Assembly: GCA_963846915.1 (NCBI GenBank)
Contig: CAWJXV010000008.1
Coordinates: 135,310 to 199,309, forward strand
Length of the DNA: 64,000 nt
DNA from: an uncultured Actinomycetes bacterium
GTDB taxonomy: Bacteria; Actinomycetota; Thermoleophilia; Gaiellales; Gaiellaceae
Direction of reading: 5' to 3'
In this document: in pieces, positions 2,786 through 38,286 of the stretch
How positions within the stretch are numbered: the first letter of the stretch is position 1
Layout: each line of letters starts with the position of its first letter
The notes under the pieces: generated by a model
What the model was told of the DNA's origin: nothing
Database searches by the model: none
What the model saw: only the letters and a program-made list of their open reading frames with translations
Translations under genes and position numbers: made by a program

Positions 2786-5083
2786 GTGAATCTCGCCGCG
2801 CGAGCCGGGCGCTGGAGCGCCGCCCACTGGAAGACCGCGTTCGTCGCCTGGATCTGCTTCGCCGCGGTCTTCTACTTCCTCGGGAACGCCGTCGGCTCGG
2901 TCAAGCTCGCCGACGCGGACACGGGCTCGGGTGAGACGGCACGGGCGCAGTCGATCCTCAAGCACGCGAACTTCACGCAGAGGGCGACCGAGGAGGTGCT
3001 CGTCCAGAGCCCGGCGCTGACCGTCGGCTCGCCCGCGTTCCGCCGGGCGATCCGCGACGTCGAGGCACGGCTACGGACGTTCCCGGTCATCGACCTGATC
3101 CGCTCGCCGCTCGACCCGAGCCGCAAGGGCATGGTCTCCGCCGACCGCCACTCGGCGCTCGTCCAGTTCGAGATGCGCGAGGTCGGCCAGGTCGCGCGCA
3201 AGCACGTCCAGCCGATCCTCGACGCGGTCGCCGCCGAAGAGAACGCGCACCCCGGCTTCAAGATCGAGGAGTTCGGCCTCGCGAGCTCGCAGCATGTCCT
3301 GAACAAGACCGTCGGCGACGACTTCCGCAAGGCGGAGCAGCTCACCGTGCCGATCACGCTGGTGATCCTGCTGTTCGCGTTCGGCGCGCTCGTCGCCGCA
3401 CTGCTCCCGGTCGGCCTCGCGTTCACCGGCTTCCTCGGCGCGCTTGGCTTCGCCGCCGTCGTCAGCCACTTGCAGCCGTCCTCGGACGCGACCAGCTCGG
3501 TGATCCTGCTCATGGGCATGGCGGTCGGCGTCGACTACTCGCTCTTCTATCTCCGGCGTGAGCGCGAGGAGCGGGCGCGCGGGCGGTCGCCACGCTCGGC
3601 GCTCAGCGTGACCGCGGCCACGTCGGGTCAGGCTGTGCTCGTCTCGGGCCTGACCGTCCTGATCGCGATGGCCGGGATGCTGCTCGCGGGCAACCCCGTG
3701 TTCACGTCGATCGGGATCGGGACGATGATCATGATCTCGGTGGCGATCGTCGGCTCGCTGACGATCCTTCCCGCCCTCCTCTCGAAGCTCGGCGACCGGG
3801 TCGACCGCGGCCGCGTTCCGTACGTCTCGCGGTTCGTCCGCGCCGACGGCGAGTCGCGCTTCTGGGGCGCGGTCGTCTCGGCCGTGATGCGGCGCCCGCT
3901 CGTCTCGCTCCTGCTGGCCGTGGCCGCGCTGCTCGCGATCGCCCTCCCGGCGACCGGCATGCACACCCGACTCCTGAGCTATACCGACCTGCCCCAGAAC
4001 CTGCCGGTGATCAAGGCCTACGCGGACATCCAGGCGGCCTTCCCGGGCGCTCAGACACCGGCCGAGATCGTCGTCAAGGCGCCGAACGTGCGCGCGCCGA
4101 AGGTCGTCGCCGCCGGGGAGGAGCTGGTCAGGCGGGCGCTCGCGACGCCGGACATGAAGCTGCCAGTCTCGGCGACAGTCAGCCCGGACGGAACCGTCGC
4201 CCGGATCAACATCCCGCTCGTCGGCAACGGCACCGACGCGAGCTCGGACCGCGCCCTCCAGCTGCTGCGCGGGAAGCTGATCCCCGAGACGCTTGGCAAA
4301 GTGCCGGACGTCGAGACCGCCGTGACCGGGATCACCGCCGGCACGAAGGACTTCAACGACCAGATGAAGAGCCGAGCGCCCCTCATCTTCGCGTTCGTGC
4401 TCGGGCTGGCGTTCTGCCTGCTCCTGCTCACCTTCCGCTCGATCGTGATCCCGATCAAGGCGATCCTGCTCAACCTGATCTCGGTCTTCGCCGCCTACGG
4501 CGCGCTGGTGCTGATCTTCCAGCACCACTGGGCGGAGGGCATCCTCGGCTTCCGCTCGAACGGCGCCGTCGTCTCGTGGCTTCCGATGTTCCTGTTCGTC
4601 GTCCTCTTCGCCCTGTCGATGGACTACCACATCTTCATCCTCACCCGGGTCAAGGAGCTCGTCGACGGAGGCGTGCCCACCGAGGAGGCCGTCGAGCGCG
4701 CCGTCAAGAGCACGGCCGGGACGGTGACGAGCGCGGCCGTCGTCATGGTCGCCGTCTTCGCGGTCTTCGCCACACTCCGCTCGCTCGACATCAAGCAGAT
4801 GGGCGTCGGCCTCGCGATCGCCGTCTTCCTGGATGCGACGATCGTGCGCGCCGTGCTGCTCCCGGCGGGGATGAAGCTGCTCGGCGACTGGAACTGGTAC
4901 CTGCCCCGCTGGCTCGACTGGCTGCCCTCGCTGTCGGCCGGCAGTCGGCCGGCGCCGCGTTCAGCGGACGAACTCGACCTCGCCGGACTCGACGGGGCGG
5001 CCGTCGACGATCAGCCGGCCCGCGCGGTCGAGCCCGCCGCCCACGCCTTCGAGGCCGTTGACCGAGACGCGGCGGCCACGTAG
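2786..5083 (+). CDS. MMPL family (RND superfamily) transporter
   Basis: ORF 2786..5083 (765 aa, GTG start). Two blocks of transmembrane helices separated by soluble loops. MMPL-typical stretches VILLMGMAVGVDYSLFYLRRERE and FALSMDYHIFILTRVKE. The 3' tail overlaps convergent birA by 123 nt. Confidence 0.9.
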   Translation: MNLAARAGRWSAAHWKTAFVAWICFAAVFYFLGNAVGSVKLADADTGSGETARAQSILKHANFTQRATEEVLVQSPALTVGSPAFRRAIRDVEARLRTFPVIDLIRSPLDPSRKGMVSADRHSALVQFEMREVGQVARKHVQPILDAVAAEENAHPGFKIEEFGLASSQHVLNKTVGDDFRKAEQLTVPITLVILLFAFGALVAALLPVGLAFTGFLGALGFAAVVSHLQPSSDATSSVILLMGMAVGVDYSLFYLRREREERARGRSPRSALSVTAATSGQAVLVSGLTVLIAMAGMLLAGNPVFTSIGIGTMIMISVAIVGSLTILPALLSKLGDRVDRGRVPYVSRFVRADGESRFWGAVVSAVMRRPLVSLLLAVAALLAIALPATGMHTRLLSYTDLPQNLPVIKAYADIQAAFPGAQTPAEIVVKAPNVRAPKVVAAGEELVRRALATPDMKLPVSATVSPDGTVARINIPLVGNGTDASSDRALQLLRGKLIPETLGKVPDVETAVTGITAGTKDFNDQMKSRAPLIFAFVLGLAFCLLLLTFRSIVIPIKAILLNLISVFAAYGALVLIFQHHWAEGILGFRSNGAVVSWLPMFLFVVLFALSMDYHIFILTRVKELVDGGVPTEEAVERAVKSTAGTVTSAAVVMVAVFAVFATLRSLDIKQMGVGLAIAVFLDATIVRAVLLPAGMKLLGDWNWYLPRWLDWLPSLSAGSRPAPRSADELDLAGLDGAAVDDQPARAVEPAAHAFEAVDRDAAAT

Positions 5084-5695
5084 AAAGTCACGCGAGCCGA
5101 TCCCGTCGAACACCGCGTCGAGCCCGCCCGCCACCCAGGCGTCGTAGTGCGCCTCGAGGCGGGTGAGCAGATCGGCGAGAAGCGAAGCCCGATCCCGCTC
5201 GACGCCGTCAACGGTGCGAAGCGAGGCCGCCGGAACACGCGCGTCCTCCGGAAGCTGCTCGCGCGTCTGGTTGACGTTGAGGCCGATCCCGAGCACGACG
5301 ATCCCGTCGCGCGCCTCGGCGAGCACGCCCGCGACCTTGCTCCGGTTGACCATGACGTCGTTCGGCCACTTGATCTGCGCCGAGAGGTCGAGCGCCTCCT
5401 CGACGGTCTCCGCGACGGCGAGGCCGCCGACGAGCGAGAGCTGCTGGATCGGCGCGCCTCGGGGCGGGCGGAGCAGCACCGAGGCGGTGATCGCGGTGCC
5501 GGGCGGCGCCGCCCAGCGGCGGCCGAGCCTGCCCCGGCCCGCGGTCTGGTGGTCGGCGGCCGCAACGGCTCCCTCCTCGTCGTCCAGGCCGAGAAGCGCC
5601 TGCGTCGTCTCGGCTTCGCCCGCGTAGCGGTACGGCCGGCCGAAGCGTCCCGTGAGCAGCGGCTCGACGGCCGGCGGAGCGAGCGAGTCCGCCAT
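4961..5695 (-). CDS. birA: Biotin--[acetyl-CoA-carboxylase] ligase
   Basis: C-terminal 244 aa of ORF 4961..6634, starting at ATG 5695 (MADSLAPP...). BirA motif HQTAGRGRLGRRW, then KWPNDV. The ATG overlaps the upstream gene's stop (ATGA). Confidence 0.85.
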   Translation of the reverse strand: MADSLAPPAVEPLLTGRFGRPYRYAGEAETTQALLGLDDEEGAVAAADHQTAGRGRLGRRWAAPPGTAITASVLLRPPRGAPIQQLSLVGGLAVAETVEEALDLSAQIKWPNDVMVNRSKVAGVLAEARDGIVVLGIGLNVNQTREQLPEDARVPAASLRTVDGVERDRASLLADLLTRLEAHYDAWVAGGLDAVFDGIGSRDFLRGRRVSVNGLEGVGGGLDRAGRLIVDGRPVESGEVEFVR

Positions 5696-6825
5696 CAGTG
5701 GAACTCGATCACGGTGCGGATGCCTTCCTGGCGCTCCATCGCGTGGAAGGCGTCGTTCACGTCGTCGAGGGCGACCCGGCTCGTGACGAGGCGGTCGACG
5801 TCGATCTCGCCGGCCAGCCAGCGGTCGACGAGCTGCGGGACCTGCGAGCGGCCCTTGACGCCGCCGAACGACGTTCCGGCCACGCGGCGGCCCGTGATCA
5901 GGAGGCGCGGAACGACGTCGAGTGTCTCGCCCTTGCCGGCGACGCCGCACATCGTCGCGAGACCCCAGGCCTCGCGCGCCGCCTCGGCGGCCTGCCGCAT
6001 CACCGCGACGTTGCCGGTCGCCTCGAAGGTGTAGTCGGCGCCGAAGCCGCCGGTCTCGCCGCGGATCCAGTCGACCGTGTCCTCGGCGGCGACACGCGTG
6101 TCGGTGGCTCCGTGGTGGCGCGCTTCCGAAAGCCGACCCTCGGAGAGATCGACCGCGACGACCCGCTCGGCGCCGGCGAGGCGGCAGCCGATCACGCAGC
6201 CGAGCCCGACGAGCCCGCAGCCGAAGACGACACAGGTCGAGCCGGGCTCGACCTTCGCCGTGTAGAGCGCGGCGCCGATGCCGGTCGAGAGGCCGCACGC
6301 GAACGGCGCGCAGCCGGCGAGCGGCGCCTCGCCGCTGACTTTCGCGAGCGCGATCTCGGGGATGACGGCGTACTCGGCGAACGTGGACGTGCCCATGAAG
6401 TGGCGTAGCGGCTCGCCGTCCCGCTCGAGCCGCGCGGTGCCGTCGGGCAGGAAGCCGAGGCCTTGCTGGTCGCGGATCGCGACGCAGCGGTTCGTCCGCG
6501 GGCTCAGGCAGTGAACGCACTCGCCGCACTCGGGCGCGAAGAGCGTCACGACGTGGTCGCCGGGAGCGACAAGGCTGCGGCCGCCCTCGCCGACGCGCTC
6601 GACGACGCCGGCGCCCTCGTGCCCGAGGACGCACGGCGCGTAGCCGGTCGGGTCGGCGCCTGATGCCGTGTACAGGTCGGTGTGGCAGACGCCGCAGGCG
6701 GCGAGCCGGACGAGCGCCTCACCAGCCTTCGGCTCGTTCAGCTCGACGTCCTGGACGACGAGCGGCTGGCCGAACTCCTCCAGCACCGCGGCGCGGATCC
6801 TCACGGTGCCAAGCGTAATCGCCAA
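5695..6825 (-). CDS. Zinc-dependent alcohol dehydrogenase, class III / NDMA- or mycothiol-dependent type
   Basis: ORF 5695..6825. CGVCHTDL, GHEGAGVVE, structural-zinc Cys cluster CGECVHC, Rossmann motif VFGCGLVGLG. The start could instead be GTG 6804 (VRIRAAVLEEF). Confidence 0.9.
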   Translation of the reverse strand: MAITLGTVRIRAAVLEEFGQPLVVQDVELNEPKAGEALVRLAACGVCHTDLYTASGADPTGYAPCVLGHEGAGVVERVGEGGRSLVAPGDHVVTLFAPECGECVHCLSPRTNRCVAIRDQQGLGFLPDGTARLERDGEPLRHFMGTSTFAEYAVIPEIALAKVSGEAPLAGCAPFACGLSTGIGAALYTAKVEPGSTCVVFGCGLVGLGCVIGCRLAGAERVVAVDLSEGRLSEARHHGATDTRVAAEDTVDWIRGETGGFGADYTFEATGNVAVMRQAAEAAREAWGLATMCGVAGKGETLDVVPRLLITGRRVAGTSFGGVKGRSQVPQLVDRWLAGEIDVDRLVTSRVALDDVNDAFHAMERQEGIRTVIEFH

Positions 6826-6928: not shown

Positions 6929-9664
6929 CTAGATCGGCTCGACGCGGACGGCGCTGACCTTGTACTCGGGCGTGCCGATCAGCGGGTCGCCCACGTCGTG
7001 CGTCAGCCAGTTCACCTTCGCCTGCGCGAAGTGGAGCGCCATCCAGACGAGACCCGGGTACACGCGGTCGGTGATGCTCGCGCGCGCCTCGAGGTCGCCG
7101 CGGCGAGACACCAGCCGCGCCCAGTCCCCGTCGGCGAGGCCCAGGGCGGACGCATCCTCGGCGGAGATCTCGAAGAACGGATCCTCCTGCTTGTCGGTGA
7201 TGCCCGCTTCCCGCATCGTCATCGTGGCCGAGTTGTAGTGGTAGAGCGTGCGCCCGGTCGAGAGCGTCAGCGGATACTCGTTGTCGGGAAGCTCGATCGG
7301 CGGCTGGTACTCGACCGGCCAGAGCTTGCCCTTGCCGTTCGGCCGTGACGGTCGCGGCGCGTGCAGGATCTTCGACCCGGGGTCGTCGCGGTCGAGGCAC
7401 GGCCACTGGATCCCTTGCTCCTCGAGCCGGTCGTAGCGGATCCCGTACCAGTTCGGCGAGAGGTCGGCGAGCTCGTTCCAGACCGACTCGGCGTCCGGGT
7501 ACGCGGGCCACGACGCGCCCATCGCACGCGCCAGCCCGACGACGATGTCCCGGTCGACCCGCGCCTCGCCGGGACACGGCACGCCGGCGCGGACGCGGTT
7601 CACGCGCCGCTCCGTGTTCGTGAACGTCCCGTCCTTCTCGGCGAAGCTCGACGCCGGGAAGACGACGTCGGCGTGCGCGGCCGTGAGTTCGTTCAGGAAG
7701 AGATCCTGCGCGACGACGAAGTCGAGATGCTCGAAGCCCTCCTCGACGTGCTTCGCGTTCGGCTCCGTGTGTGCGGGATTCTCGCCGACGAGGTACAGCG
7801 CCTTGATCCGTCCGTCGTGGAGGCCGGAGATCATCTGGTCGAGTCGGTAGCCGAGCGTCTCGGGCACGTCCACGCCCCACGCCGCAGCAAACTTGGCGCG
7901 TACCTCCGGGTCGTCAGCGGCCTGGTAGCCGGGGTAATAGGCCGGGTTGGCGCCCGAGTCGTTCAGGCCCTGGACGTTGTTCTGGCCGCGCAGCGCGTTG
8001 AGCCCGGTCGATTCGTAGCCGAGGTGGCCGGTCGCGAGCACCAGGTTCGAGAGCGACCAGATGTTGTCGACGGCGCAGGCGTGCTCGGTGATGCCAAGCG
8101 TGTAGAAGATCGCCGCGTACCGCTCTGACGCGTACTCGCGCGCCGTGGCGCGGATGTCCTCGGCCGGCACGCCCGTGACCTTCTCGGCCGCCTCCGGTGT
8201 GTAGCGCCGGACGATCTCGCGTACCGCGTCGACGCCCTCCGTGTGCTCGGCGAGGTACTCGTCGTTCTGCAGGCCCTCCTCGAAGATCACGTGCAGCATC
8301 GCGTTGATCAGCCAGACGTCCGAGCCCGGCCGCAGCTGCAGGTGGCGCTTGGCGATCTTCGTCAGCCAGATCTTCCGCGGGTCGGCCACGACCAGCGTCG
8401 CTCCCCTCCGCACCGCCTTCTTCATTCGCAGCGCGAGCACGGGGTGCGCCTCGGTCGTGTTCGAGCCGATCACGAGCAGGAAGCGACAGTCCTCGATCTC
8501 CGGGATCGAGTTGGTGCTGGCTCCTCTGCCCAACGACCTGACCAGGCCGTAAAGAGTCGGCGCGTGTCAGGTGGCTTCGCAGGAGTGGATCGAGTTGGTC
8601 CCGATCACCCCCCGCGCCAGCTTCTGCAGCAGGTAGTTCTCCTCGTTCGTCAGGCGCGCCGACGCGAGGATGCCGATCGACTGCGGGCCGTGTCGCTCGC
8701 GGACGAGGGACAGACCCTCGGCCGCGGCCCGGAGAGCCGTGTCCCAGTCGGCCGGGTGGAGCTCGCCGTCCTCGCCGCGGACGAGGGGCTGCGTCAACCG
8801 GTCCGGATGGTGGACGAAGTTGAAGGCGAAACGGCCCTTCACGCAGAGGTTGCCGTCGTTCGAGACGTAGCCCGGGTCGGACGTGACCTTGACGATTCGC
8901 TCGGTCTTCGGGTCGACGTTGAGGTCGATCTGGCACCCGACGCCGCAGAACGTGCAGGTCGTCTTCGTCTTGACGAGCGCCTGCTCGTGCCCGGCCGGCG
9001 CGCCCGCGAGGAACTGCTCGTGGATCGCCCCGGTCGGGCACACCGAGAGGCAGCCGCCGCAGAGCTCGCACTCGGTGTCGAGCCAGGAGTGGCCGTGCGT
9101 CGGCACGACGCGGGCCTCGGCACCGCGCCCCTCGAACACGAGCGCCGAGCACTGCATGACCTCCTGCGTGTAGCGCACGCAGCGGTTGCAGAGGATGCAC
9201 GCGTCGGGGTCGTAGCCCATGAGCTTGTTGCGGTCCGAGTACTGCTCGCGGCCTGCGTCGGGGAGCAGGAACGGCGCCTGCGCGTCGAGCTCCTCGGCAA
9301 GGTCGGTGAGCTCGTTCGGCCGCCCGCCCGGGCTCGGGCTCAGATGCTCGGCGAGCAGCATCTCGGTCAGCGTCTTCCGGAGCGCGCCGTTCTCGCCGTT
9401 GGTCGAGACGACCATTCCCTCGCGCACCCGTTGCGCGCACGCGGGCACGGGACGCGGTGCGCCCTCGAGGTCGACGAGGCACATGCGGCAGCCCCCGTAG
9501 GGGTCGAGCTTGTCGTCGTGGCAGAGAGTCGGGATGAAGGTGCCGACGCGCGCGGCGGCGTGCACGAGCAGCTCGCCCTCCTGGGCCGAGATCCGCTTCC
9601 CGTCGAGGGTGAACTCGACCACGGCCTGATCGTACTCCGCCGGGCCGGCGCCCACGATGCGCAT
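6929..9664 (-). CDS. fdhA: Formate dehydrogenase alpha subunit (NuoG-like N-terminus, molybdopterin enzyme) with in-frame UGA read as selenocysteine
   Basis: ORFs 8567..9910 and 6929..8533 are in the same frame and separated only by TGA (8567-8569). The joined sequence ...GTNSIHSCEAT-U-HAPTLYGLVRSLGRGASTNSIPEIEDCRFLLVIGSNTTEAHPV matches the FDH active-site region (E. coli FdhF ...ARV-U-HGPSVAGL...). The N-terminus has 2Fe-2S and 4Fe-4S Cys clusters (CRMC, CILCNRCVRYT, CELCGGCLSVCP). Start placed at ATG 9664 (MRIVGAGPAEYDQAVVEFTLDGK). Confidence 0.85.
8530..8569 (-). promoter_or_regulatory. UGA(Sec) codon plus candidate bacterial SECIS hairpin
   Basis: mRNA after the UGA reads CACGCGCCGACUCUUUACGGCCUGGUCAGGUCGUUGGGC. 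By-eye fold: inner stem GGCCU/AGGUC closing a GGUC loop, and outer helix CCGAC/GUUGG (with G-U pairs). No energy calculation was done. Confidence 0.45.
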
Positions 9665-9676
9665 AGACTCGCGCAG

Positions 9677-10465
9677 TTGCCGGGCAGGCGGATCCGCACG
9701 AGATCGGCGCAGGGCCTGGCGGTCCTGTTCACGCTCGTCTGCTGGACGGCGCTCTTCGGGCTCAGCGATCTCGCGGACGGGTTCAGCGGCTTCGTCGACG
9801 GCGGCCGGAACACCGCGCTGGACGCCGGCTGGGGCATTCTCTTCGGCATCGTCCTGCCCGTCGGCCTCCTCGCGCAGCTGCGGTCGTCCTCGAGAGTCGC
9901 GGGGGTGCACGTGCTGCTGATCGCCGGGATTTCACTCGCCGCCTGGGGCGCCGCCGGCGAGGCGTGGGGCTACCTGGTGCTCGGCTCGGCCACAGTCGCC
10001 CTCGCGGCGCTCTTCGTCGCGCTGAGCGGCGAGCGCGCGTCCGTCCTGCGCCGGCGCGTCCCGGTGTTGCCTCCCTTGCTGCTCCTCGGCGCAGCGGCGA
10101 CGGTGCCGGCCGGTCTCTACGCGGTGCGCATGAGCTCGAACGCTAGGCAGCATCTCCCTCCCACCGATGCCGTATCGCTCGGCATCCCCCACTGGCCGGC
10201 ACTCGGGGCGCTCGCCTCGACCGTGGTGCTGCTCACGGTCGCGGCCGGGCTCGGCGTCCGCGGGCGTCTACTCCTCGGAAGCCTGGCCGGGCTCGCGGCG
10301 TGCCTGTGGGGCGTGTCGTGCCTGCTCTACCCCGGCGTCGCGGGGAGCGAGGGCCGAGGCTGGGCAGCGGCGGCAATCGTGTGGGCGGCGATCACGCTGG
10401 CAACCGTCGCGGTCGAGCGGCAGCGCGACGGTGCGCGAGCGGCCCCGGCGCCCGGCCCGGCCTAG
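9677..10465 (+). CDS. Hypothetical integral membrane protein
   Basis: C-terminal about 260 aa of ORF 8243..10465. Several hydrophobic helices (LAVLFTLVCWTALFGL, GILFGIVLPVGLL, LLIAGISLAAWGAAG, LPPLLLLGAAATVPAGL, TVVLLTVAAGLGV, AAAAIVWAAITLATVAV). The start is uncertain (TTG 9677 proposed). Divergent from fdhA. Confidence 0.45.
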   Translation: MPGRRIRTRSAQGLAVLFTLVCWTALFGLSDLADGFSGFVDGGRNTALDAGWGILFGIVLPVGLLAQLRSSSRVAGVHVLLIAGISLAAWGAAGEAWGYLVLGSATVALAALFVALSGERASVLRRRVPVLPPLLLLGAAATVPAGLYAVRMSSNARQHLPPTDAVSLGIPHWPALGALASTVVLLTVAAGLGVRGRLLLGSLAGLAACLWGVSCLLYPGVAGSEGRGWAAAAIVWAAITLATVAVERQRDGARAAPAPGPA

Positions 10466-21477: not shown

Positions 21478-22286
21478 ATCCGCTCGAGCTCCTCTACGAA
21501 ATCGACGGCCTCCCCGCCTTCGACCTTCCCGAGGAGCTCGAGCAACAGTACGGCGGGCGGTTCGGCATCGCGCCGCCGCTGCTCTACACGAACTTCGTCG
21601 AGACGCTCGACGGCGTCGTCGCGATCCGCTCGGAGCCGCTCACGAACCGGCTCGTGAGTGGCAACAGCGACGCAGATCGCTTTGTGATGGGCCTCCTGCG
21701 GGCGTGCGCCGACTGCGTGCTCCTCGGCTCGGGCACGCTGCACGGGTCGCCGAAGTCCGTCTGGACGGCGGAGCGCGCCTACCCCGACGGGGCCGCCGCG
21801 TTCGCCGAGCTGCGCCGCCGGCTCGGGCTGCCCGCCGAACCCGAGCTCGCCGTGATCACCGCGAGCGGCGCGCTCGACCCAGACCATCCCGCGCTCGAGC
21901 GGGGGGCGGTCGTGCTGACGACGAAGCACGGCGCATCCACCTGCCGGGGGCGGCTTTCCAGCGCGGTCGAGATCGTCGTGCTCGAGGGCGAGTCGGCCAT
22001 CGACCCGGCCGAGGCGGTCGACGTCCTGCGACGGCGGGAACGCCGGTCGATCCTCTCGGAGGCAGGCCCGCACGTCTTCGGCTCGCTGCTCGCGGCAGGG
22101 CTCGTCGACGAAATGTTCCTGACGGTCTCGCCGCTCCTCGCCGGCCGCTCGCCGCTCGCCGAGCGACTCGGGCTGGTCGAAGGACAGGAGCTCCTCCCCG
22201 GCCGGGCCGAACAGGCGCGCCTGCTGGGCGTCCGCCGCGACGAGGCGCATCTCTTCCTGCGCTACGGGCTATCGTCCGGCGCGTGA
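21474..22286 (+). CDS. RibD C-terminal domain / dihydrofolate-reductase-like reductase family protein
   Basis: GTG 21474 within ORF 20910..22286 (GTGA overlap with the folE stop). VETLDGVVA..., ADCVLLGSGT, ILSEAGPHVFGSLLAAGLVDEMFLTVSPLLAG are typical of the RibD_C fold. Confidence 0.78.
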   Translation: MNPLELLYEIDGLPAFDLPEELEQQYGGRFGIAPPLLYTNFVETLDGVVAIRSEPLTNRLVSGNSDADRFVMGLLRACADCVLLGSGTLHGSPKSVWTAERAYPDGAAAFAELRRRLGLPAEPELAVITASGALDPDHPALERGAVVLTTKHGASTCRGRLSSAVEIVVLEGESAIDPAEAVDVLRRRERRSILSEAGPHVFGSLLAAGLVDEMFLTVSPLLAGRSPLAERLGLVEGQELLPGRAEQARLLGVRRDEAHLFLRYGLSSGA

Positions 22287-23747
22287 CGACCGGGCTGAAC
22301 GAGCTTCCGCGCGAGCGCACGCAGCTCCTCGACAACCTCGGCTGGATCCGCCGGAACCTCGGCCCGGTCACGCCCGAGCTCTCGGACGCGCTCGCCGACC
22401 ACATGAACATCCGCCGCGGCGAGGTGGCCGAGGTGGCCTCGTTCTACTCGTACCTGCGCCTGCCGGCCGACGTCGTCCGGGTCTGCACGGGGCCGGTGTG
22501 CGACTGCCTCGGCGGCCGCGCGCTGCTCGAGCAGAGCCCGGGCGCGGTCGAGGTGCCGTGCATCGGCCACTGCGACCTCGCTCCCGCGATGATGCGCGGC
22601 GACGAGGTCGTGCCCGGCGTGACGCACGCGGCGAATCACGGTCGGTCGATCGACCTGCTCGCGCCGGACGAGCCGCGCGACCCGCCCGCGCTCGATCCCG
22701 ACCGGATCGTGGCCGAGCTCGAGGCCTCCGGGCTCGTCGGCTACGGCGGCGCCGGATTCCCGACCTTCCGGAAGTGGGCCGCGGTGCGCGACTACCCCGG
22801 CCCGCGCGTCGTGATCGTGAACGCCGACGAGGGCGAGCCCGGGACGATCAAGGACCGCTACGTCATGGAGCTGCGGCCGCACCTGCTCGTCGAGGGGATC
22901 GAGATCGCGATGCGGTTCGCGGAGGCCGACGAGGGCTACGTCTACCTCCGGGAGGAGTACACGACGGCGCGGGAGCGCCTGTCCGCGGCGCTGGCCGCAC
23001 GTGGGCTCCCGGTCACGATCGTCACCGGCGCCGGCTCGTACGTCTGCGGCGAGGAGACGGCGATGCTCGAGTCGATGGAGGGCCGCCGCGGCATGCCCCG
23101 CCTGCGCCCGCCGTTCCCGGTCGAGGCCGGCTTCCTCGGCCGCCCGACGCTGATCAACAACGTCGAGACGCTCGCTCACATCCCGGCCGTCCTGCGCCTC
23201 GGCGGCGCGAGTCTGGCCGCGCGTCCGTCTCTGGTCGGTCTCGGGCGCGGTCGCGAAGCCGGGCTGCTACGAGGCGCCGGTCGACGCCACCGCCCGGCAG
23301 CTGATCGACGACTACGCGGGCGGCGCGACCGGGGACATCGGCGCCGTCGTACCGGGCGGCGCCGCGTCCGGGATTGTCCCGCCCGCTGCGCTCGACGCGC
23401 CGCTCACGCGCGAGGGCCTGGCGCCGTGGGGCTCCGGCCCCGGCTCGGCCGGCCTCCAGGTCTTCCCCGCGTCCTACTCCGTGCTGCGGCTCCTGCGCGA
23501 GACCATGCGGTTCTTCGCCGAGGAGTCGTGCCAGAAATGTACGCCGTGCCGCATCGGCACGCGCGGGCTCGAGCACGTCCTCCACGAGCTGGAGGAAGGC
23601 AGACCGGCGATGCCCGGCTGGCAGCTCGAGGAGTGGCTCGTCGCGATGGAGAAGGGCTCGATCTGTGGGCTCGGCCAGGGCGCGCCCATCCCCCTGCGCG
23701 GCGCGATGCGCCACTGGCCGGAGCTCTTCACGCCGCTCGCCAGCTAA
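22283..23747 (+). pseudogene. NuoE/NuoF-like (FdsB-type) NAD(H)-FMN iron-sulfur protein, reading frame broken once near 23207-23229
   Basis: GTG 22283 (GTGA overlap). N-terminal thioredoxin-like part (EVASFYSYLRL, CTGPVCDC, CIGHCDLAP). NuoF core GYGGAGFPTFRKW, VIVNADEGEPGTIKDR, GAGSYVCGEETAMLESMEG, PFPVEAGFLGRPTLINNVETLAHIPAVLRLGG. The conserved continuation LWSVSGAVAKPGCYEAP...FFAEESCQKCTPCRIG...GSICGLGQGAP then runs in the +1 frame (ORF 23481..23747 is its end). Total length 1465 nt is not a multiple of 3. Confidence 0.8.
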
Positions 23748-23844
23748 GCAAGCGCAGGTCCGATACGGTGGTGTCAATCGTTACATTTCCGGGCTGGGAC
23801 TTCGGGCTGGGTCAACCTGACCGGTTCGCTTATCAGGAGGCGCC

Positions 23845-36645: not shown

Positions 36646-36732
36646 GTCTCGTCACCGGGGTGCCCCGGCGGGTCCGGGGCTGAGATCACACCCGCTGAAC
36701 CTGATCCGGTTCGTACCGGCGAAGGGAGGCGT
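36646..36732 (+). promoter_or_regulatory. TPP (THI-box) riboswitch
   Basis: GUCUCGUCACCGGGGUGCCCCGGCGGGUCCGGGGCUGAGAUCACACCCGCUGAACCUGAUCCGGUUCGUACCGGCGAAGGGAGGCGU. It contains the conserved GGGGUGC, CUGAGA, ACCC..GAACCUGAUC.GG...ACC.GCG.AGGGA elements. Candidate P1 is GUCUC/GAGGC, whose 3' strand overlaps the GGGAGG Shine-Dalgarno of the ATG at 36733. Confidence 0.85.
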
Positions 36733-36936
36733 ATGAGCGTAGGCTCGACGGAGCTCACGGAGGAGCGGAGGCGGTGGCTCCGCCGCCGCCGGGAGCGGGC
36801 ATGAGCGTAGGCTCGACGGAGCTCACAGAAGAGCGGAGGCGGTGGCTCCGCCGCCGCCGGGAGCGGGCATGAGCGTAGGCTCGACGGAGCTCACAGAAGA
36901 GCGGAGGCGGTGGCTCTGCCGCCGCCGGGAGCGGGA
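36733..36936 (+). repeat. Tandem repeat, 3 x 68 bp
   Basis: Units 36733-36800, 36801-36868 and 36869-36936. Unit 1 vs unit 2 has 2 substitutions (ACG/ACA, GAG/GAA). Unit 2 vs unit 3 has 2 substitutions (CGC/TGC, GCA/GAA). Each unit starts with ATGAGCGTAGGCTCGACGGAGCTCAC. Confidence 0.95.
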
Positions 36937-36940
36937 ATGA
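36733..36940 (+). other. Three chained 23-codon mini-ORFs (MSVGSTELTEERRRWL[R/C]RRRER[A/E]) between the riboswitch and cytX
   Basis: ORFs 36733-36804, 36801-36872 and 36869-36940. Each TGA overlaps the next ATG (ATGA), and the last overlaps the cytX ATG at 36937. A GGGAG lies 5 nt before every ATG. Translation is not demonstrated. Confidence 0.35.
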
Positions 36941-38286
36941 GCTCGGAAACGCCTCCGTGGGGCATCGAGCCCGTCCCCGACAGGCTCCGCGTCCTCGGCT
37001 TCCTCGACTCGCTCCTGCTCTGGGGGAACCTCTCCGTCTCGCTGCTCGTGATCGTGATCGGCGCCCTGCTCGTGCCGGCGCTCTCGCTTCGCGACGCGCT
37101 GCTCGCGATCGTGGTCGGCGCGATCGCCGGCAGCGCACTCCTGGCCGCCGCGGCGCTGATCGGCGCCGACGGCCGCGTGCCGGGAATGGTGCTGCTGCGC
37201 GCGCCGCTCGGGAGGCAGGGCTCGTACGCGCCGACCGTCCTCAACATCGCGCAGAACGTCGGCTGGTCGACCTTCGAGCTGATCATCATCGCCGCCGCCG
37301 CCGGCGCGCTCTCGAAGCACCTGTTCGGCTGGCAGGGCACGTGGTTCTGGACGATCGTGTTCGGACTGCTCTCCTGGGCGCTCGGGATGCTCGGGCCGAT
37401 CGGGTTCGTGCGCCGCTACGTGCGGAAGTTCGCGTCGTGGGCGCTGATCTTCGCGATGGCGTACCTGACCTACTGGGCGATCGAGAAGGCCAACCTCCAT
37501 GCGTTCTGGGCGCAGCCGGGCAAGGGCGGCTTCCCGACGTTCGGCCAGGCGATCGACCTCGTGATCGCGAGCGTCGTCTCCTGGACACCGCTCGCCGCCG
37601 ACTACACACGCTTCTCGCGCTCACGGCGCGGCGCCTTCTGGGGCGCGGGGCTCGGCTACGTCGTGCCGACGATCTGGTGCATCGGGCTCGGCATCCTCGT
37701 CGTCCTCGCGCGGGGGATCGCCGATGCGCAGTCGCTGCCGGCCGGCGTCGCGGCGGCGGGAGGTGTCGCGCTCGTCGCCCTCGCGGCGATCACGATCGAC
37801 GAGAGCGAGAAGGCGTTCGCCGACATCTACTCGACCGCGGTGTCGATCCAGAACCTGCTCCCGCGCGTGTCGCAGCGGCTCCTGATCACGCTCGTCTCCG
37901 CGGCGGCGACCGGGCTCGCGCTCGCGCTCGACCTCGGCAACTACCAGAACTTCCTCTACCTGCTCGGGTCGTGCTTCGTCCCGCTCTTCGGCGTGCTGCT
38001 CGCCGACTGGCTCGTCGCCGGCGCGCACTACCGGGAGCAGGACATCTTCGGCGCGCCCGCCTTCCGGTTCGAGCAGATCGCGGCGTGGGTCGTCGGCTTC
38101 TGCCTCTACCAGTGGCTGTCGCCGGTCGGGCCGAACTGGTGGACCCACCTCGTCGCCCACACGCATCCGGGCTACGTGAGCTTCACCGCCTCGTTACCGG
38201 CCTTCGGAGCCTCGTTCGCGCTCGCGGCGGCCGGCGCGTTCGTCTATCGGCGCGTCCGCACGCGCAGCGCGCTGGCCGAGGCCTGA
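36937..38286 (+). CDS. cytX: NCS1-family transporter, CytX-like (putative hydroxymethylpyrimidine/thiamine-precursor permease)
   Basis: ORF 36910..38286 trimmed to ATG 36937 (MSSETPPWGIEPVPDRLRVLGFLDSLLLWGNLSVSLL...). 12 transmembrane helices. Lies downstream of the TPP riboswitch, as is usual for cytX. Confidence 0.85.
   Translation: MSSETPPWGIEPVPDRLRVLGFLDSLLLWGNLSVSLLVIVIGALLVPALSLRDALLAIVVGAIAGSALLAAAALIGADGRVPGMVLLRAPLGRQGSYAPTVLNIAQNVGWSTFELIIIAAAAGALSKHLFGWQGTWFWTIVFGLLSWALGMLGPIGFVRRYVRKFASWALIFAMAYLTYWAIEKANLHAFWAQPGKGGFPTFGQAIDLVIASVVSWTPLAADYTRFSRSRRGAFWGAGLGYVVPTIWCIGLGILVVLARGIADAQSLPAGVAAAGGVALVALAAITIDESEKAFADIYSTAVSIQNLLPRVSQRLLITLVSAAATGLALALDLGNYQNFLYLLGSCFVPLFGVLLADWLVAGAHYREQDIFGAPAFRFEQIAAWVVGFCLYQWLSPVGPNWWTHLVAHTHPGYVSFTASLPAFGASFALAAAGAFVYRRVRTRSALAEA

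What the first reader, a model, noticed from the sequence alone, without database searches (positions are those of the whole stretch)
6929..9664. In-frame UGA at the catalytic position of a NuoG-type formate dehydrogenase: predicted selenoprotein with a SECIS-like GGUC-loop hairpin
The two track ORFs (8567..9910 and 6929..8533) share a frame and are separated by a single TGA at 8567-8569. The joined protein reads SCEAT-U-HAPTLYGLVRSLGRGASTNS. This aligns, from memory, with the E. coli FdhF Sec region CARV-U-HGPSVAGLHQSVGNGAMSN. In the 40 nt after the UGA I can draw a stem GGCCU/AGGUC closing a GGUC loop, extended by CCGAC/GUUGG. As far as I recall, the E. coli fdhF SECIS also has a GGUC apical loop. 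The enzyme has the NAD-linked FdsA/NuoG-like N-terminus, not the minimal FdhF form. If the host is an actinobacterium, as gene content suggests, Sec usage there is confined to few lineages. No selA, selB, selC or selD is visible in this window.
Basis: partly seen in the sequence, partly recalled or inferred. Interest (0 to 1): 0.7.

Follow-up and report, generated by a model that had tools for sequence, protein, structure and literature searches.

The report
Selenocysteine formate dehydrogenase gene in Gaiellaceae
An apparent stop codon in the middle of a formate dehydrogenase gene of a soil actinobacterium (family Gaiellaceae) almost certainly encodes selenocysteine, an ordinary kind of recoding that public gene calls for this family miss.

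Summary
On the minus strand, 9664..6929 is one 911-codon gene for a formate dehydrogenase alpha subunit (TIGR01591, 747 bits). It is interrupted only by TGA at 8569..8567 (codon 366). That codon aligns with the Mo-ligand Cys386 of Rhodobacter capsulatus FdsA and with Sec140 of E. coli FdhF.

The same TGA is present in 80 of 80 species-level Gaiellaceae/Gaiellales genomes and in 114 metagenome orthologues. More distant homologues that span the junction have Cys at this position.

The 18 nt at 8551..8534 include a 6-bp hairpin with a GGUC loop, and they are identical in all 195 sequences. Six synonymous third positions and a rare AGG codon are among them. Elsewhere in the gene only 11% of comparable codons are fixed. 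The hairpin meets the published bacterial SECIS rules.

A different lower helix (8555..8551 with 8527..8523) fits the variation better.

No conserved restart codon follows the TGA, so a split enzyme is unlikely.

selA, selB, selD and tRNA-Sec are absent from the window and from about 2.4 Mb of related loci. I could show them only in a cultured member of the same class (Miltoncostaea oceani), not in a Gaiellaceae genome.

Verdict: a real selenoprotein gene, and a new member of a well-known kind.

The parts
6929..9664 (-). fdhA: a single recoded coding sequence of 911 codons (ATG 9664, Sec codon 366, stop 6931..6929). It encodes a formate dehydrogenase alpha subunit of the FdsA/NuoG-like type.
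   Evidence: One frame. TIGR01591 scores 747 bits against a cut-off of 666. Pfam finds Fer2_4, Fer4_Nqo3, Molybdop_Fe4S4, Molybdopterin and Molydop_binding. Best solved structure is 6tg9_A, E 2e-193. Third-position G+C is 0.90 before and 0.93 after the TGA.
8567..8569 (-). In-frame TGA, the predicted selenocysteine codon (residue 366).
   Evidence: It aligns with Cys386 of R. capsulatus FdsA and Sec140 of E. coli FdhF. TGA is present in 80/80 genome orthologues and 114/114 metagenome orthologues. Cys occupies this position in more distant homologues.
8534..8549 (-). SECIS apical hairpin, nt 21-36 after the U of UGA: CGGCCU-GGUC-AGGUCG. It has a 6-bp stem and a GGUC loop at 8543..8540.
   Evidence: RNAalifold consensus. 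All six pairs are present in 61/61 distinct sequences. Energy is -6.5 kcal/mol, z -2.4. Every base is invariant in 81 + 114 sequences.
8534..8551 (-). Invariant 18-nt block TAC GGC CTG GTC AGG TCG (codons +6 to +11). Its six synonymous third positions are fixed and it includes the rare codon AGG.
   Evidence: This is the longest run of nucleotide-invariant codons in the gene (6 codons; the next longest is 3). Only 41 of 381 codons with an invariant amino acid and a choice of codons are fixed gene-wide. AGG makes up 6% of Arg codons in the window.
8551..8555 (-). Proposed 5' arm of the lower SECIS helix (nt 15-19, YCUYU).
   Evidence: It pairs with nt 43-47 in 99% of cells. Variation is only C<->U opposite G. 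ACT and CTT are used in 37% and 53% of orthologues, against 1.9% and 2.9% in window genes. There is no double compensatory change, so this helix is an inference.
8523..8527 (-). Proposed 3' arm of the lower SECIS helix (nt 43-47, AGAGG). It contains the rare Arg codon AGA.
   Evidence: AGA is kept in 79/81 orthologues, although it makes up only 1.7% of Arg codons in the window.
8807..9625 (-). N-terminal NuoG-like iron-sulfur region: a [2Fe-2S] Fer2_4 domain, 4Fe-4S domains and Molybdop_Fe4S4.
   Evidence: Pfam matches to residues 14-286. The region aligns with the N-terminus of FdsA in 6tg9.
5695..6825 (-). Downstream neighbour on the same strand: a class III alcohol / S-(hydroxymethyl)thiol (formaldehyde) dehydrogenase-like gene. 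Context only.
   Evidence: TIGR02818 scores 419 bits, below its cut-off of 544. This position is occupied in only 6 of 80 relatives.
22280..23759 (+). Homologue of the fused NuoE/NuoF diaphorase gene. In 68 of 80 relatives this gene sits directly upstream of fdhA. Here it lies 12.6 kb away and is split by a frameshift near 23221-23226.
   Evidence: tblastn finds two pieces in different frames. Pfam 2Fe-2S_thioredx + Complex1_51K. nuoF_fam hit to half of the model. Synteny in relatives.

Best explanation
The region 9664..6929 (minus strand) is one gene for a molybdenum- or tungsten-bis-PGD formate dehydrogenase alpha subunit of the FdsA type, with a NuoG-like N-terminus. Its metal-ligand residue is selenocysteine, encoded by UGA at 8569..8567.

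Proposed mechanism, with the status of each step:

1. Shown: the UGA lies in frame at the catalytic position, and protein-level purifying selection continues straight through it.
2. Shown: an RNA-level constraint fixes an 18-nt stretch. This stretch forms a 6-bp hairpin with a GGUC loop 23 nt downstream of the UGA.
3. Inferred from the E. coli and Moorella paradigm: this hairpin is the SECIS. It is probably seated on a 5-bp lower helix that starts 11 nt after the UGA. It binds the C-terminal domains of SelB carrying Sec-tRNA(Sec) while the ribosome has UGA in its A site, so that Sec is inserted instead of release factor 2 terminating the chain.
4. Inferred: selA, selB, selC and selD are encoded elsewhere in the genome.
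5. Inferred from synteny in relatives: the enzyme works with a fused NuoE/NuoF-like diaphorase, oxidising formate with NAD(P)+.
For: Family and position:
- TIGR01591 scores 747 bits against a cut-off of 666, and the Pfam architecture fits.
- The TGA aligns with Cys386-His387 of 6tg9 FdsA and with Sec140-His141 of E. coli FdhF.
- The motif U-H-A-P fits the published FdhA motif UHxP.

Conservation:
- 80/80 Gaiellaceae/Gaiellales species genomes (76-94% protein identity) have TGA here. They come from both long-read and short-read assemblies.
- 114/114 metagenome orthologues also have it.
- Public gene calls split every close orthologue at this point.
- Junction-spanning homologues at 47-56% identity read HCARLCH(A/S), that is, Cys.

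Translation through the TGA:
- Codons +1 to +5 vary synonymously while the peptide HAPTL stays fixed.
- The first possible restart codon lies at +12, +32, +43 or +30 in different orthologues.

SECIS:
- nt 19-36 are invariant in 195 sequences, while flanking third positions vary.
- Only 41 of 381 comparable codons are fixed gene-wide. This 6-codon run is the longest; the next is 3.
- The rare codons AGG and AGA are retained, and pyrimidines are enriched at nt 15 and 18 (ACT 37% against 1.9%, CTT 53% against 2.9%).
- The hairpin meets all four published rules for bacterial SECIS elements.
- GGUC loops occur in the E. coli fdhF and Tsukamurella fdnG SECIS.

Genetic code and machinery:
- UGA is an ordinary stop in this genome, ending 9 of 17 genes checked.
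- Sec machinery exists in the class Thermoleophilia: selD-selA-selB-tRNA(Sec) in Miltoncostaea oceani.
Against: - No selA, selB, selD or tRNA-Sec lies in the window, in 80 genome loci (about 1.6 Mb) or in 120 metagenome loci (0.76 Mb). None of the SelA homologues found elsewhere could be assigned to a Gaiellaceae genome.
- The hairpin shows no covariation, because it never varies. The structure therefore rests on invariance, not on compensatory change.
- Folding energy is not exceptional for this G+C content.
- No Rfam SECIS family matches. SECIS_2 does detect the E. coli control, and SECIS_3 gives only a weak, below-threshold hit on Tsukamurella fdnG.
- The loop lies 5 nt further from the UGA than in E. 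coli.
- An alternative 7-bp helix that buries the UGA is the minimum-energy fold of the 68-nt stretch.
- In this window the diaphorase gene is not adjacent and is frameshifted.
Confidence: 0.9

Rival explanations
1. The UGA is read through, but not by the SelB/tRNA(Sec) pathway. One option is near-cognate or suppressor decoding as Cys, Trp or Arg. Another is an unknown recoding system in which the conserved hairpin acts as a read-through stimulator.
For: No Sec machinery could be tied to any Gaiellaceae genome. The element matches no Rfam SECIS family. The loop position differs from E. coli.
Against: The UGA sits exactly at the Sec/Cys metal-ligand position of the most widespread bacterial selenoprotein family. 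The hairpin satisfies the bacterial SECIS rules and has the same GGUC loop motif as known SelB-dependent elements. A sister order in the same class has the full sel cluster. Low-efficiency suppression would hardly be maintained in about 200 lineages when a TGC codon is one mutation away.
Confidence: 0.05
2. The enzyme is genuinely split. Translation ends at the UGA and a second polypeptide is started downstream, so that two subunits assemble.
For: Every public gene call shows two ORFs. A TTG lies 12 codons after the TGA in this window.
Against: That TTG is present in only 31 of 81 sequences. The first possible start lies at +12, +32, +43 or +30 in different orthologues. The peptide between the TGA and those starts (HAPTLYGLVRS...) is nearly invariant, with synonymous variation, which shows that it is translated. 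A split would also remove the metal-ligand residue itself.
Confidence: 0.03
3. The TGA is a pseudogene lesion or a sequencing or assembly error.
For: The window comes from a long-read metagenome assembly. It contains at least one apparent frameshift elsewhere.
Against: The identical TGA is found in 80/80 independent species genomes, including short-read (k141) assemblies, and in 114 metagenome contigs. Coding signal and amino-acid conservation are intact on both sides.
Confidence: 0.01

Closest known systems
E. coli formate dehydrogenase H (FdhF, Sec140) and its fdhF SECIS (Rfam SECIS_2)
   Same: Same Mo-bis-PGD catalytic module (1aa6, E 1.6e-155). UGA at the homologous position, followed by His. 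Hairpin directly downstream with a GGUC tetraloop.
   Different: FdhF lacks the NuoG-like N-terminus. Its loop is at nt 22-25 with a bulged U in the stem, whereas here the loop is at nt 27-30 on a perfect 6-bp stem. SECIS_2 scores 87 bits on E. coli and gives no hit here.
NAD-dependent FdsABG(D) formate dehydrogenases of Rhodobacter capsulatus (PDB 6tg9) and Cupriavidus necator
   Same: Best full-length structural relatives: E 2e-193 over residues 9-908, with the same N-terminal [2Fe-2S]/[4Fe-4S] NuoG-like region. In 68 of 80 relatives a NuoE/NuoF-like gene precedes fdhA.
   Different: Those enzymes have Cys386 where this one has UGA. Here NuoE and NuoF are fused in one gene. In this window that gene is 12.6 kb away and frameshifted.
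Actinobacterial Sec-containing FdnG-type formate dehydrogenases with a linked sel cluster (Mycobacterium spp., PMC13449736; Tsukamurella tyrosinosolvens plasmid NZ_LR134459.1)
   Same: Same phylum, a Sec-UGA followed by His, and a GGUC-containing SECIS loop.
   Different: These belong to a different FDH subfamily: membrane-bound FDH-N type, with only partial matches to TIGR01553 and NF041513 here. Their selD, tRNA-Sec, selA and selB lie next to the FDH genes, whereas none lies within 10 kb here. SECIS_3 hits Tsukamurella weakly but does not hit this window.
Moorella thermoacetica NADP-dependent tungsten-selenium formate dehydrogenase (recalled from my own knowledge, not tested here)
   Same: As I recall, its alpha subunit has a NuoG-like Fe-S N-terminus, contains Sec and partners with a NuoF-like subunit. 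If so, the combination 'NuoG-type plus Sec' is not new.
   Different: Firmicute, anaerobic acetogen. No sequence comparison was made here.

Membership tests
Selenocysteine-containing formate dehydrogenase alpha subunit (FdhA selenoprotein family) | Protein belongs to the FDH alpha family of Mo/W-bis-PGD enzymes | tested here: met
   TIGR01591 scores 747 bits against a curated cut-off of 666. Pfam domains fit. PDB relatives are FDHs.
Selenocysteine-containing formate dehydrogenase alpha subunit (FdhA selenoprotein family) | In-frame UGA at the metal-ligand Sec/Cys position, motif U-H-x-P | tested here: met
   The TGA aligns with Cys386 of 6tg9 and Sec140 of FdhF. The sequence reads T-U-H-A-P.
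Selenocysteine-containing formate dehydrogenase alpha subunit (FdhA selenoprotein family) | Homologues with Cys at the same position (Sec/Cys pair) | tested here: met
   HCARLCH(A/S) in P0122, P0130, P0131, P0151, P0181 and P0201. Cys in FdsA.
Selenocysteine-containing formate dehydrogenase alpha subunit (FdhA selenoprotein family) | UGA and the flanking reading frame conserved among orthologues | tested here: met
   80/80 genome loci and 114/114 metagenome loci. Codon-level conservation on both sides.
Selenocysteine-containing formate dehydrogenase alpha subunit (FdhA selenoprotein family) | selA, selB, selC (tRNA-Sec) and selD present in the same genome | not testable with these tools
   Absent from the window and from about 2.4 Mb of related loci. 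The rest of the genome could not be read. The machinery is present in the same class, in Miltoncostaea oceani.
Selenocysteine-containing formate dehydrogenase alpha subunit (FdhA selenoprotein family) | Selenium actually incorporated at the UGA | not testable with these tools
   Needs 75Se labelling or mass spectrometry.
Bacterial SECIS consensus model (bSECISearch rules as given in PMC13188914) | Apical loop of 3-9 nt on an upper stem of 4-16 bp | tested here: met
   4-nt loop and 6-bp stem (7 bp with A20-U37).
Bacterial SECIS consensus model (bSECISearch rules as given in PMC13188914) | G in one of the first two loop positions, usually followed by G or U | tested here: met
   The loop is G27 G28 U29 C30.
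Bacterial SECIS consensus model (bSECISearch rules as given in PMC13188914) | 16-37 nt between the UGA and the apical loop | tested here: met
   23 nt, nt 4-26.
Bacterial SECIS consensus model (bSECISearch rules as given in PMC13188914) | Minimum free energy of -7.5 kcal/mol or lower | tested here: met
   -9.9 kcal/mol for nt 15-47 and -16.0 for nt 4-50. The bare 16-nt hairpin gives only -6.5. The bSECISearch program itself was not run.
Rfam curated SECIS families (SECIS_2 RF01988, SECIS_3 RF01989) | Match to the covariance model | tested here: not met
   No SECIS hit on 8450-8620 even at E<=10. Controls: SECIS_2 scores 87 bits on E. coli fdhF, and SECIS_3 scores 31 bits on Tsukamurella fdnG.
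NAD(P)-linked FdsABG-type formate dehydrogenase | Alpha subunit with a NuoG-like [2Fe-2S]/[4Fe-4S] N-terminal extension | tested here: met
   Fer2_4, Fer4_Nqo3 and Molybdop_Fe4S4. Aligned over the full length with FdsA of 6tg9.
NAD(P)-linked FdsABG-type formate dehydrogenase | NuoF/NuoE-like diaphorase subunit genes in the same operon | tested here: inconclusive
   A fused NuoE/NuoF gene lies directly upstream in 68 of 80 relatives. It is not adjacent in this window, where the homologue at 22280-23759 is frameshifted.

The most novel reading that the evidence does not exclude
The invariant 18-nt element may be more than a SelB landing site. Its 3' half (GUCAGGU, 8542..8536) is a perfect 7-bp complement of ACCUGAC (8572..8566), which contains the UGA. 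This alternative helix is the minimum-energy fold and excludes the SECIS hairpin. It could act as a switch that couples Sec insertion or termination to ribosome arrival or to selenium supply. This would occur in a family whose sel genes are unlinked and have not yet been seen. A more extreme form of the same reading is that Gaiellaceae decode this UGA without a canonical SelB.
Probability: 0.06. Interest if true: 0.55.

Novelty: new member of a known kind. Interest (0 to 1): 0.25.

Why it matters
Formate dehydrogenase alpha is already the most widespread bacterial selenoprotein: 822 organisms in the 2016 survey. The mechanism is therefore textbook.

What is new is modest but useful.

- The gene is a fixed trait of Gaiellaceae/Gaiellales, an abundant and almost uncultured soil actinobacterial lineage. 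I found no paper in the searched library that links this lineage to selenocysteine.
- In the two protein searches, every close relative among the hits listed was split into a roughly 350-aa 'YjgC/NuoG' piece and a roughly 540-aa 'FDH alpha' piece. Metabolic reconstructions of these MAGs therefore mis-annotate or miss a complete NAD-linked formate dehydrogenase.
- The result implies that formate oxidation by these soil bacteria depends on selenium.
- It adds a SECIS sequence class that current Rfam models do not detect.

Tried and rejected
1. Rfam scans of the window and of 8450-8620 gave no SECIS or tRNA-Sec hit.
2. ARAGORN on the window, on 80 genome loci and on 120 metagenome loci found no tRNA-Sec.
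3. tblastn with SelA, SelB and SelD of E. coli, Tsukamurella and Miltoncostaea against the window and all related loci gave no hit.
4. I tried to tie Sec machinery to Gaiellaceae by stepping through relatives.
   - An E. coli SelA search of plasmids led to the Tsukamurella sel cluster.
   - A second plasmid search led to the Miltoncostaea oceani (Thermoleophilia) sel cluster.
   - A protein search with its SelA gave 120 homologues at 60-97% identity.
   - Contig look-ups and cluster look-ups gave no organism names.
   - The ENA 'sample' identifiers turned out to be whole metagenome assemblies, not bins.
   - Result: inconclusive.
6. I searched for covariation in the hairpin by collecting 114 more orthologues from metagenomes with a peptide-based DNA pattern. 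All carry the identical 18 nt, so no compensatory changes exist to count.
8. Conserved synteny around fdhA in this window: only the closest relatives share the neighbours.
9. A plasmid search for a Thermoleophilia copy of this fdhA found nothing closer than 48% identity.
10. A scan for other TGA-interrupted genes in the window gave only chance same-frame neighbours at 2762 and 39713.
Full report
**Observation.** On the minus strand, the ORFs 8567..9910 and 6929..8533 are in the same frame. The only stop between them is TGA at 8569..8567. The conserved part of the protein starts at the ATG at 9664. This gives a 911-codon gene with the TGA as codon 366. The 82 codons upstream of that ATG, up to 9910, lie outside the part that relatives match. 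The DNA is 70.7% G+C. Third-position G+C is 0.90 before the TGA and 0.93 after it, so coding signal is continuous across it.

**What the protein is.**
- With Cys substituted at the TGA, the protein scores 747 bits on TIGR01591, formate dehydrogenase subunit alpha (cut-off 666).
- Its Pfam architecture is Fer2_4, Fer4_Nqo3, Molybdop_Fe4S4, Molybdopterin and Molydop_binding.
- The best solved relatives are the NAD-dependent FdsA subunits: 6tg9_A, E 2e-193 over residues 9-908.
- In that alignment the TGA faces Cys386 in ...TCARVCHSPTGYGL.... From my own knowledge, Cys386 is the molybdenum ligand.
- In E. coli fdhF, fetched from NC_000913.3, the in-frame TGA is codon 140 in NVDCCARV*HGPSVAGLHQSVGNGAMSN.
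- The motif U-H-A-P fits the published FdhA motif UHxP.

**Host and comparative evidence.**
- A scan of one genome per GTDB species returned 80 loci. All are MAGs labelled Gaiellaceae, Gaiella, Gaiellales, Thermoleophilia or unclassified Actinomycetota/Actinomycetes. Their FdhA is 76-94% identical to the window's.
- Every one of the 80 has TGA at the homologous codon. They include long-read assemblies and short-read (k141) assemblies, so a sequencing artefact is excluded.
- A pattern scan of JGI metagenomes for the peptide C-E-(A/S)-T-TGA-H-A-P returned 118 usable hits. Of these, 114 are orthologues with the same TGA.
- In the public protein collection, all 120 best hits to the joined protein are 515-552-aa C-terminal pieces. 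A query spanning the junction returns mostly N-terminal pieces of up to about 366 aa. Gene callers split the gene everywhere.
- The few hits that do span the junction are 47-56% identical and read HCARLCH(A/S), with Cys at the TGA position. This is the classical Sec/Cys pair.
- TGA is otherwise a normal stop here, ending 9 of 17 genes checked. The genetic code is therefore not reassigned.

**Is the downstream part translated as a continuation?**
- The five codons after the TGA keep the peptide HAPTL while varying at third positions (GCT/GCG, CCG/CCC/CCA, ACC/ACT/ACG, CTT/CTC).
- The first in-frame ATG, GTG or TTG after the TGA lies at codon +12 in 31 sequences, +32 in 30, +43 in 15 and +30 in 3.
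- A separately initiated second subunit would need a conserved start and would lack the conserved peptide and the metal ligand. That rival is rejected.

**The hairpin.** I number from the U of UGA as nt 1, so that window coordinate = 8570 - n.
- nt 21-36 (8549..8534) form CGGCCU-GGUC-AGGUCG, a 6-bp stem with a GGUC loop.
- Stability alone is unremarkable in this G+C-rich DNA: z between -0.7 and -2.4.
- The decisive signal is at synonymous sites. nt 19-36 (TAC GGC CTG GTC AGG TCG) are identical in all 81 genome sequences and all 114 metagenome sequences. Third positions just outside the block (nt 9, 12, 15, 18, 39, 48, 51) vary freely.
- Gene-wide, only 41 of 381 codon columns with an invariant amino acid and a choice of codons use a single codon. 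This run of six invariant codons is the longest in the gene, and the next longest is three. At about 10% per codon, six in a row is expected with a probability of order 1e-6 per position.
- The block includes AGG, which makes up 6% of Arg codons in the window.

**The lower stem.**
In orthologues, however, pair 11-39 is broken in 36 of 61 distinct sequences and pair 12-38 in 15 of 61.
- A different helix, nt 15-19 (YCUYU) with nt 43-47 (AGAGG), is paired in 99% of cells. Its only variation is C<->U opposite G, or A->G opposite U.
- This helix explains three odd codon choices:
  - AGA is kept in 79/81 sequences although it makes up 1.7% of Arg codons.
  - ACT is used in 37% of orthologues against 1.9% in window genes, with the preferred ACG almost absent.
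  - CTT is used in 53% against 2.9%.
- No pair shows a change on both sides. I therefore treat the apical hairpin as well supported by constraint, and the lower helix as a reasonable inference.

**Comparison with known SECIS elements.**
- The published bacterial model asks for a 3-9-nt loop on a 4-16-bp stem, a G in the first two loop positions (usually followed by G or U), 16-37 nt between the UGA and the loop, and an energy of -7.5 kcal/mol or lower.
- This element has a 4-nt loop GGUC, 6-7 bp, a spacing of 23 nt, and -9.9 to -16 kcal/mol.
- The E. coli fdhF SECIS has the loop GGUC at nt 22-25. An actinobacterial fdnG (Tsukamurella) has GGUCU at nt 22-26. Here the loop is 5 nt further away, although the proposed lower helix starts at nt 15, the same distance as the E. 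coli mini-helix.
- Rfam SECIS_2 finds the E. coli element (87 bits), and SECIS_3 weakly finds the Tsukamurella one (31 bits). Neither matches the window even at E<=10. This is a bacterial SECIS by the general rules, but not a member of the curated Rfam families.

**Sec machinery.**
- The window has no tRNA, no Rfam tRNA-Sec, and no tblastn match to SelA, SelB or SelD of E. coli, Tsukamurella or Miltoncostaea. The same holds for the 80 genome loci and the 120 metagenome loci.
- Unlike in mycobacteria and Tsukamurella, where selD, tRNA-Sec, selA and selB flank the FDH genes, the sel genes are not linked to this fdhA.
- I could not read the rest of any Gaiellaceae genome.
- By stepping through plasmid records, I found a complete selD-selA-selB-tRNA(Sec) cluster in Miltoncostaea oceani, a cultured member of the same class, Thermoleophilia.
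- I also found many SelA homologues at 60-76% identity with selB next door, on uncultured actinobacterial contigs of 67-77% G+C. None could be assigned to a genome that carries this fdhA.
- The machinery is thus shown for the class and inferred for the family. The literature shows that Sec-FDH is common in Actinobacteria. I found nothing on Gaiellales.

**Context.**
- In 68 of 80 relatives, a gene fusing NuoE-like and NuoF-like domains lies directly upstream of fdhA. This supports an NAD(P)-linked FdsGB-A enzyme.
- In the window and its closest relatives, that gene is not adjacent. A homologue lies at 22280-23759 on the plus strand and is split by a frameshift near 23221-23226. The window comes from a long-read assembly (ENA ERZ25039556 contig_32917, 794 kb), so this may be an assembly indel.
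- Downstream of fdhA are a class-III alcohol/formaldehyde-dehydrogenase-like gene (5695-6825) and a BirA-like ligase gene (4970-5644).

**Verdict.** This is a selenocysteine-containing, NuoG-type formate dehydrogenase with a strongly constrained SECIS hairpin. It is fixed across Gaiellaceae and systematically mis-called as two genes. It is a new member of a very well-known kind. The open points are direct proof of the sel genes in these genomes and of selenium in the protein.

Noticed in passing
window 8566-8572 with 8536-8542 (minus strand): ACCUGAC, which contains the UGA, is a perfect 7-bp complement of GUCAGGU, the 3' half of the SECIS loop and stem. This pairing is the minimum-energy fold of the 68-nt stretch (-26.3 kcal/mol, z -2.3) and excludes the SECIS hairpin. 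Both arms are invariant in all orthologues, so covariation cannot be tested.
   Followed up: partly
window 22280-23759 (+): A NuoE/NuoF-fusion (diaphorase) homologue is split into two frames near 23221-23226. In 68 of 80 relatives the intact gene lies directly upstream of fdhA. This could be an assembly indel in a long-read contig or a real pseudogene.
   Followed up: partly
L084 6854-7321 (+), and 22 of the 80 related loci: A gene for the ribosome-rescue factor ArfB (NF006718, 111 bits) sits immediately upstream of the nuoEF-like/fdhA operon. A rescue factor next to a UGA-recoded gene may be coincidence.
   Followed up: no
window 5695-6825 (-): A class III alcohol / S-(hydroxymethyl)thiol dehydrogenase-like gene lies about 100 nt downstream of fdhA on the same strand (TIGR02818, 419 bits, below cut-off). 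It suggests a formaldehyde-to-formate-to-CO2 pair. It is present at this position in only 6 of 80 relatives. In most relatives a BirA-like ligase gene follows fdhA directly.
   Followed up: partly
window 36646-36745 (+): A TPP riboswitch (RF00059, 61.9 bits, above the gathering score) lies upstream of the ORF 36811-38286.
   Followed up: no
L028 and L038: One MAG (MFD09267.bin.2.72) carries two copies of this fdhA on different contigs. Both have the TGA and the identical hairpin.
   Followed up: no
L090, L091, L213, L214, L215: Uncultured actinobacterial contigs (67-70% G+C) share a conserved locus moaD-moaE-selA-TPR protein-selB-126-aa ORF-GCS2, which links Sec synthesis genes to molybdopterin synthase genes. 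ARAGORN found no tRNA-Sec in the fetched stretches. The 126-aa ORF is 65% identical to one in a Gaiellales MAG (L018). The family of these contigs is unknown.
   Followed up: partly
window 9665-9910 (-): The mechanical ORF extends 82 codons upstream of the conserved ATG at 9664. This stretch is Arg/Glu/Ala/Pro-rich, and relatives do not match it. It is probably untranslated leader.
   Followed up: partly
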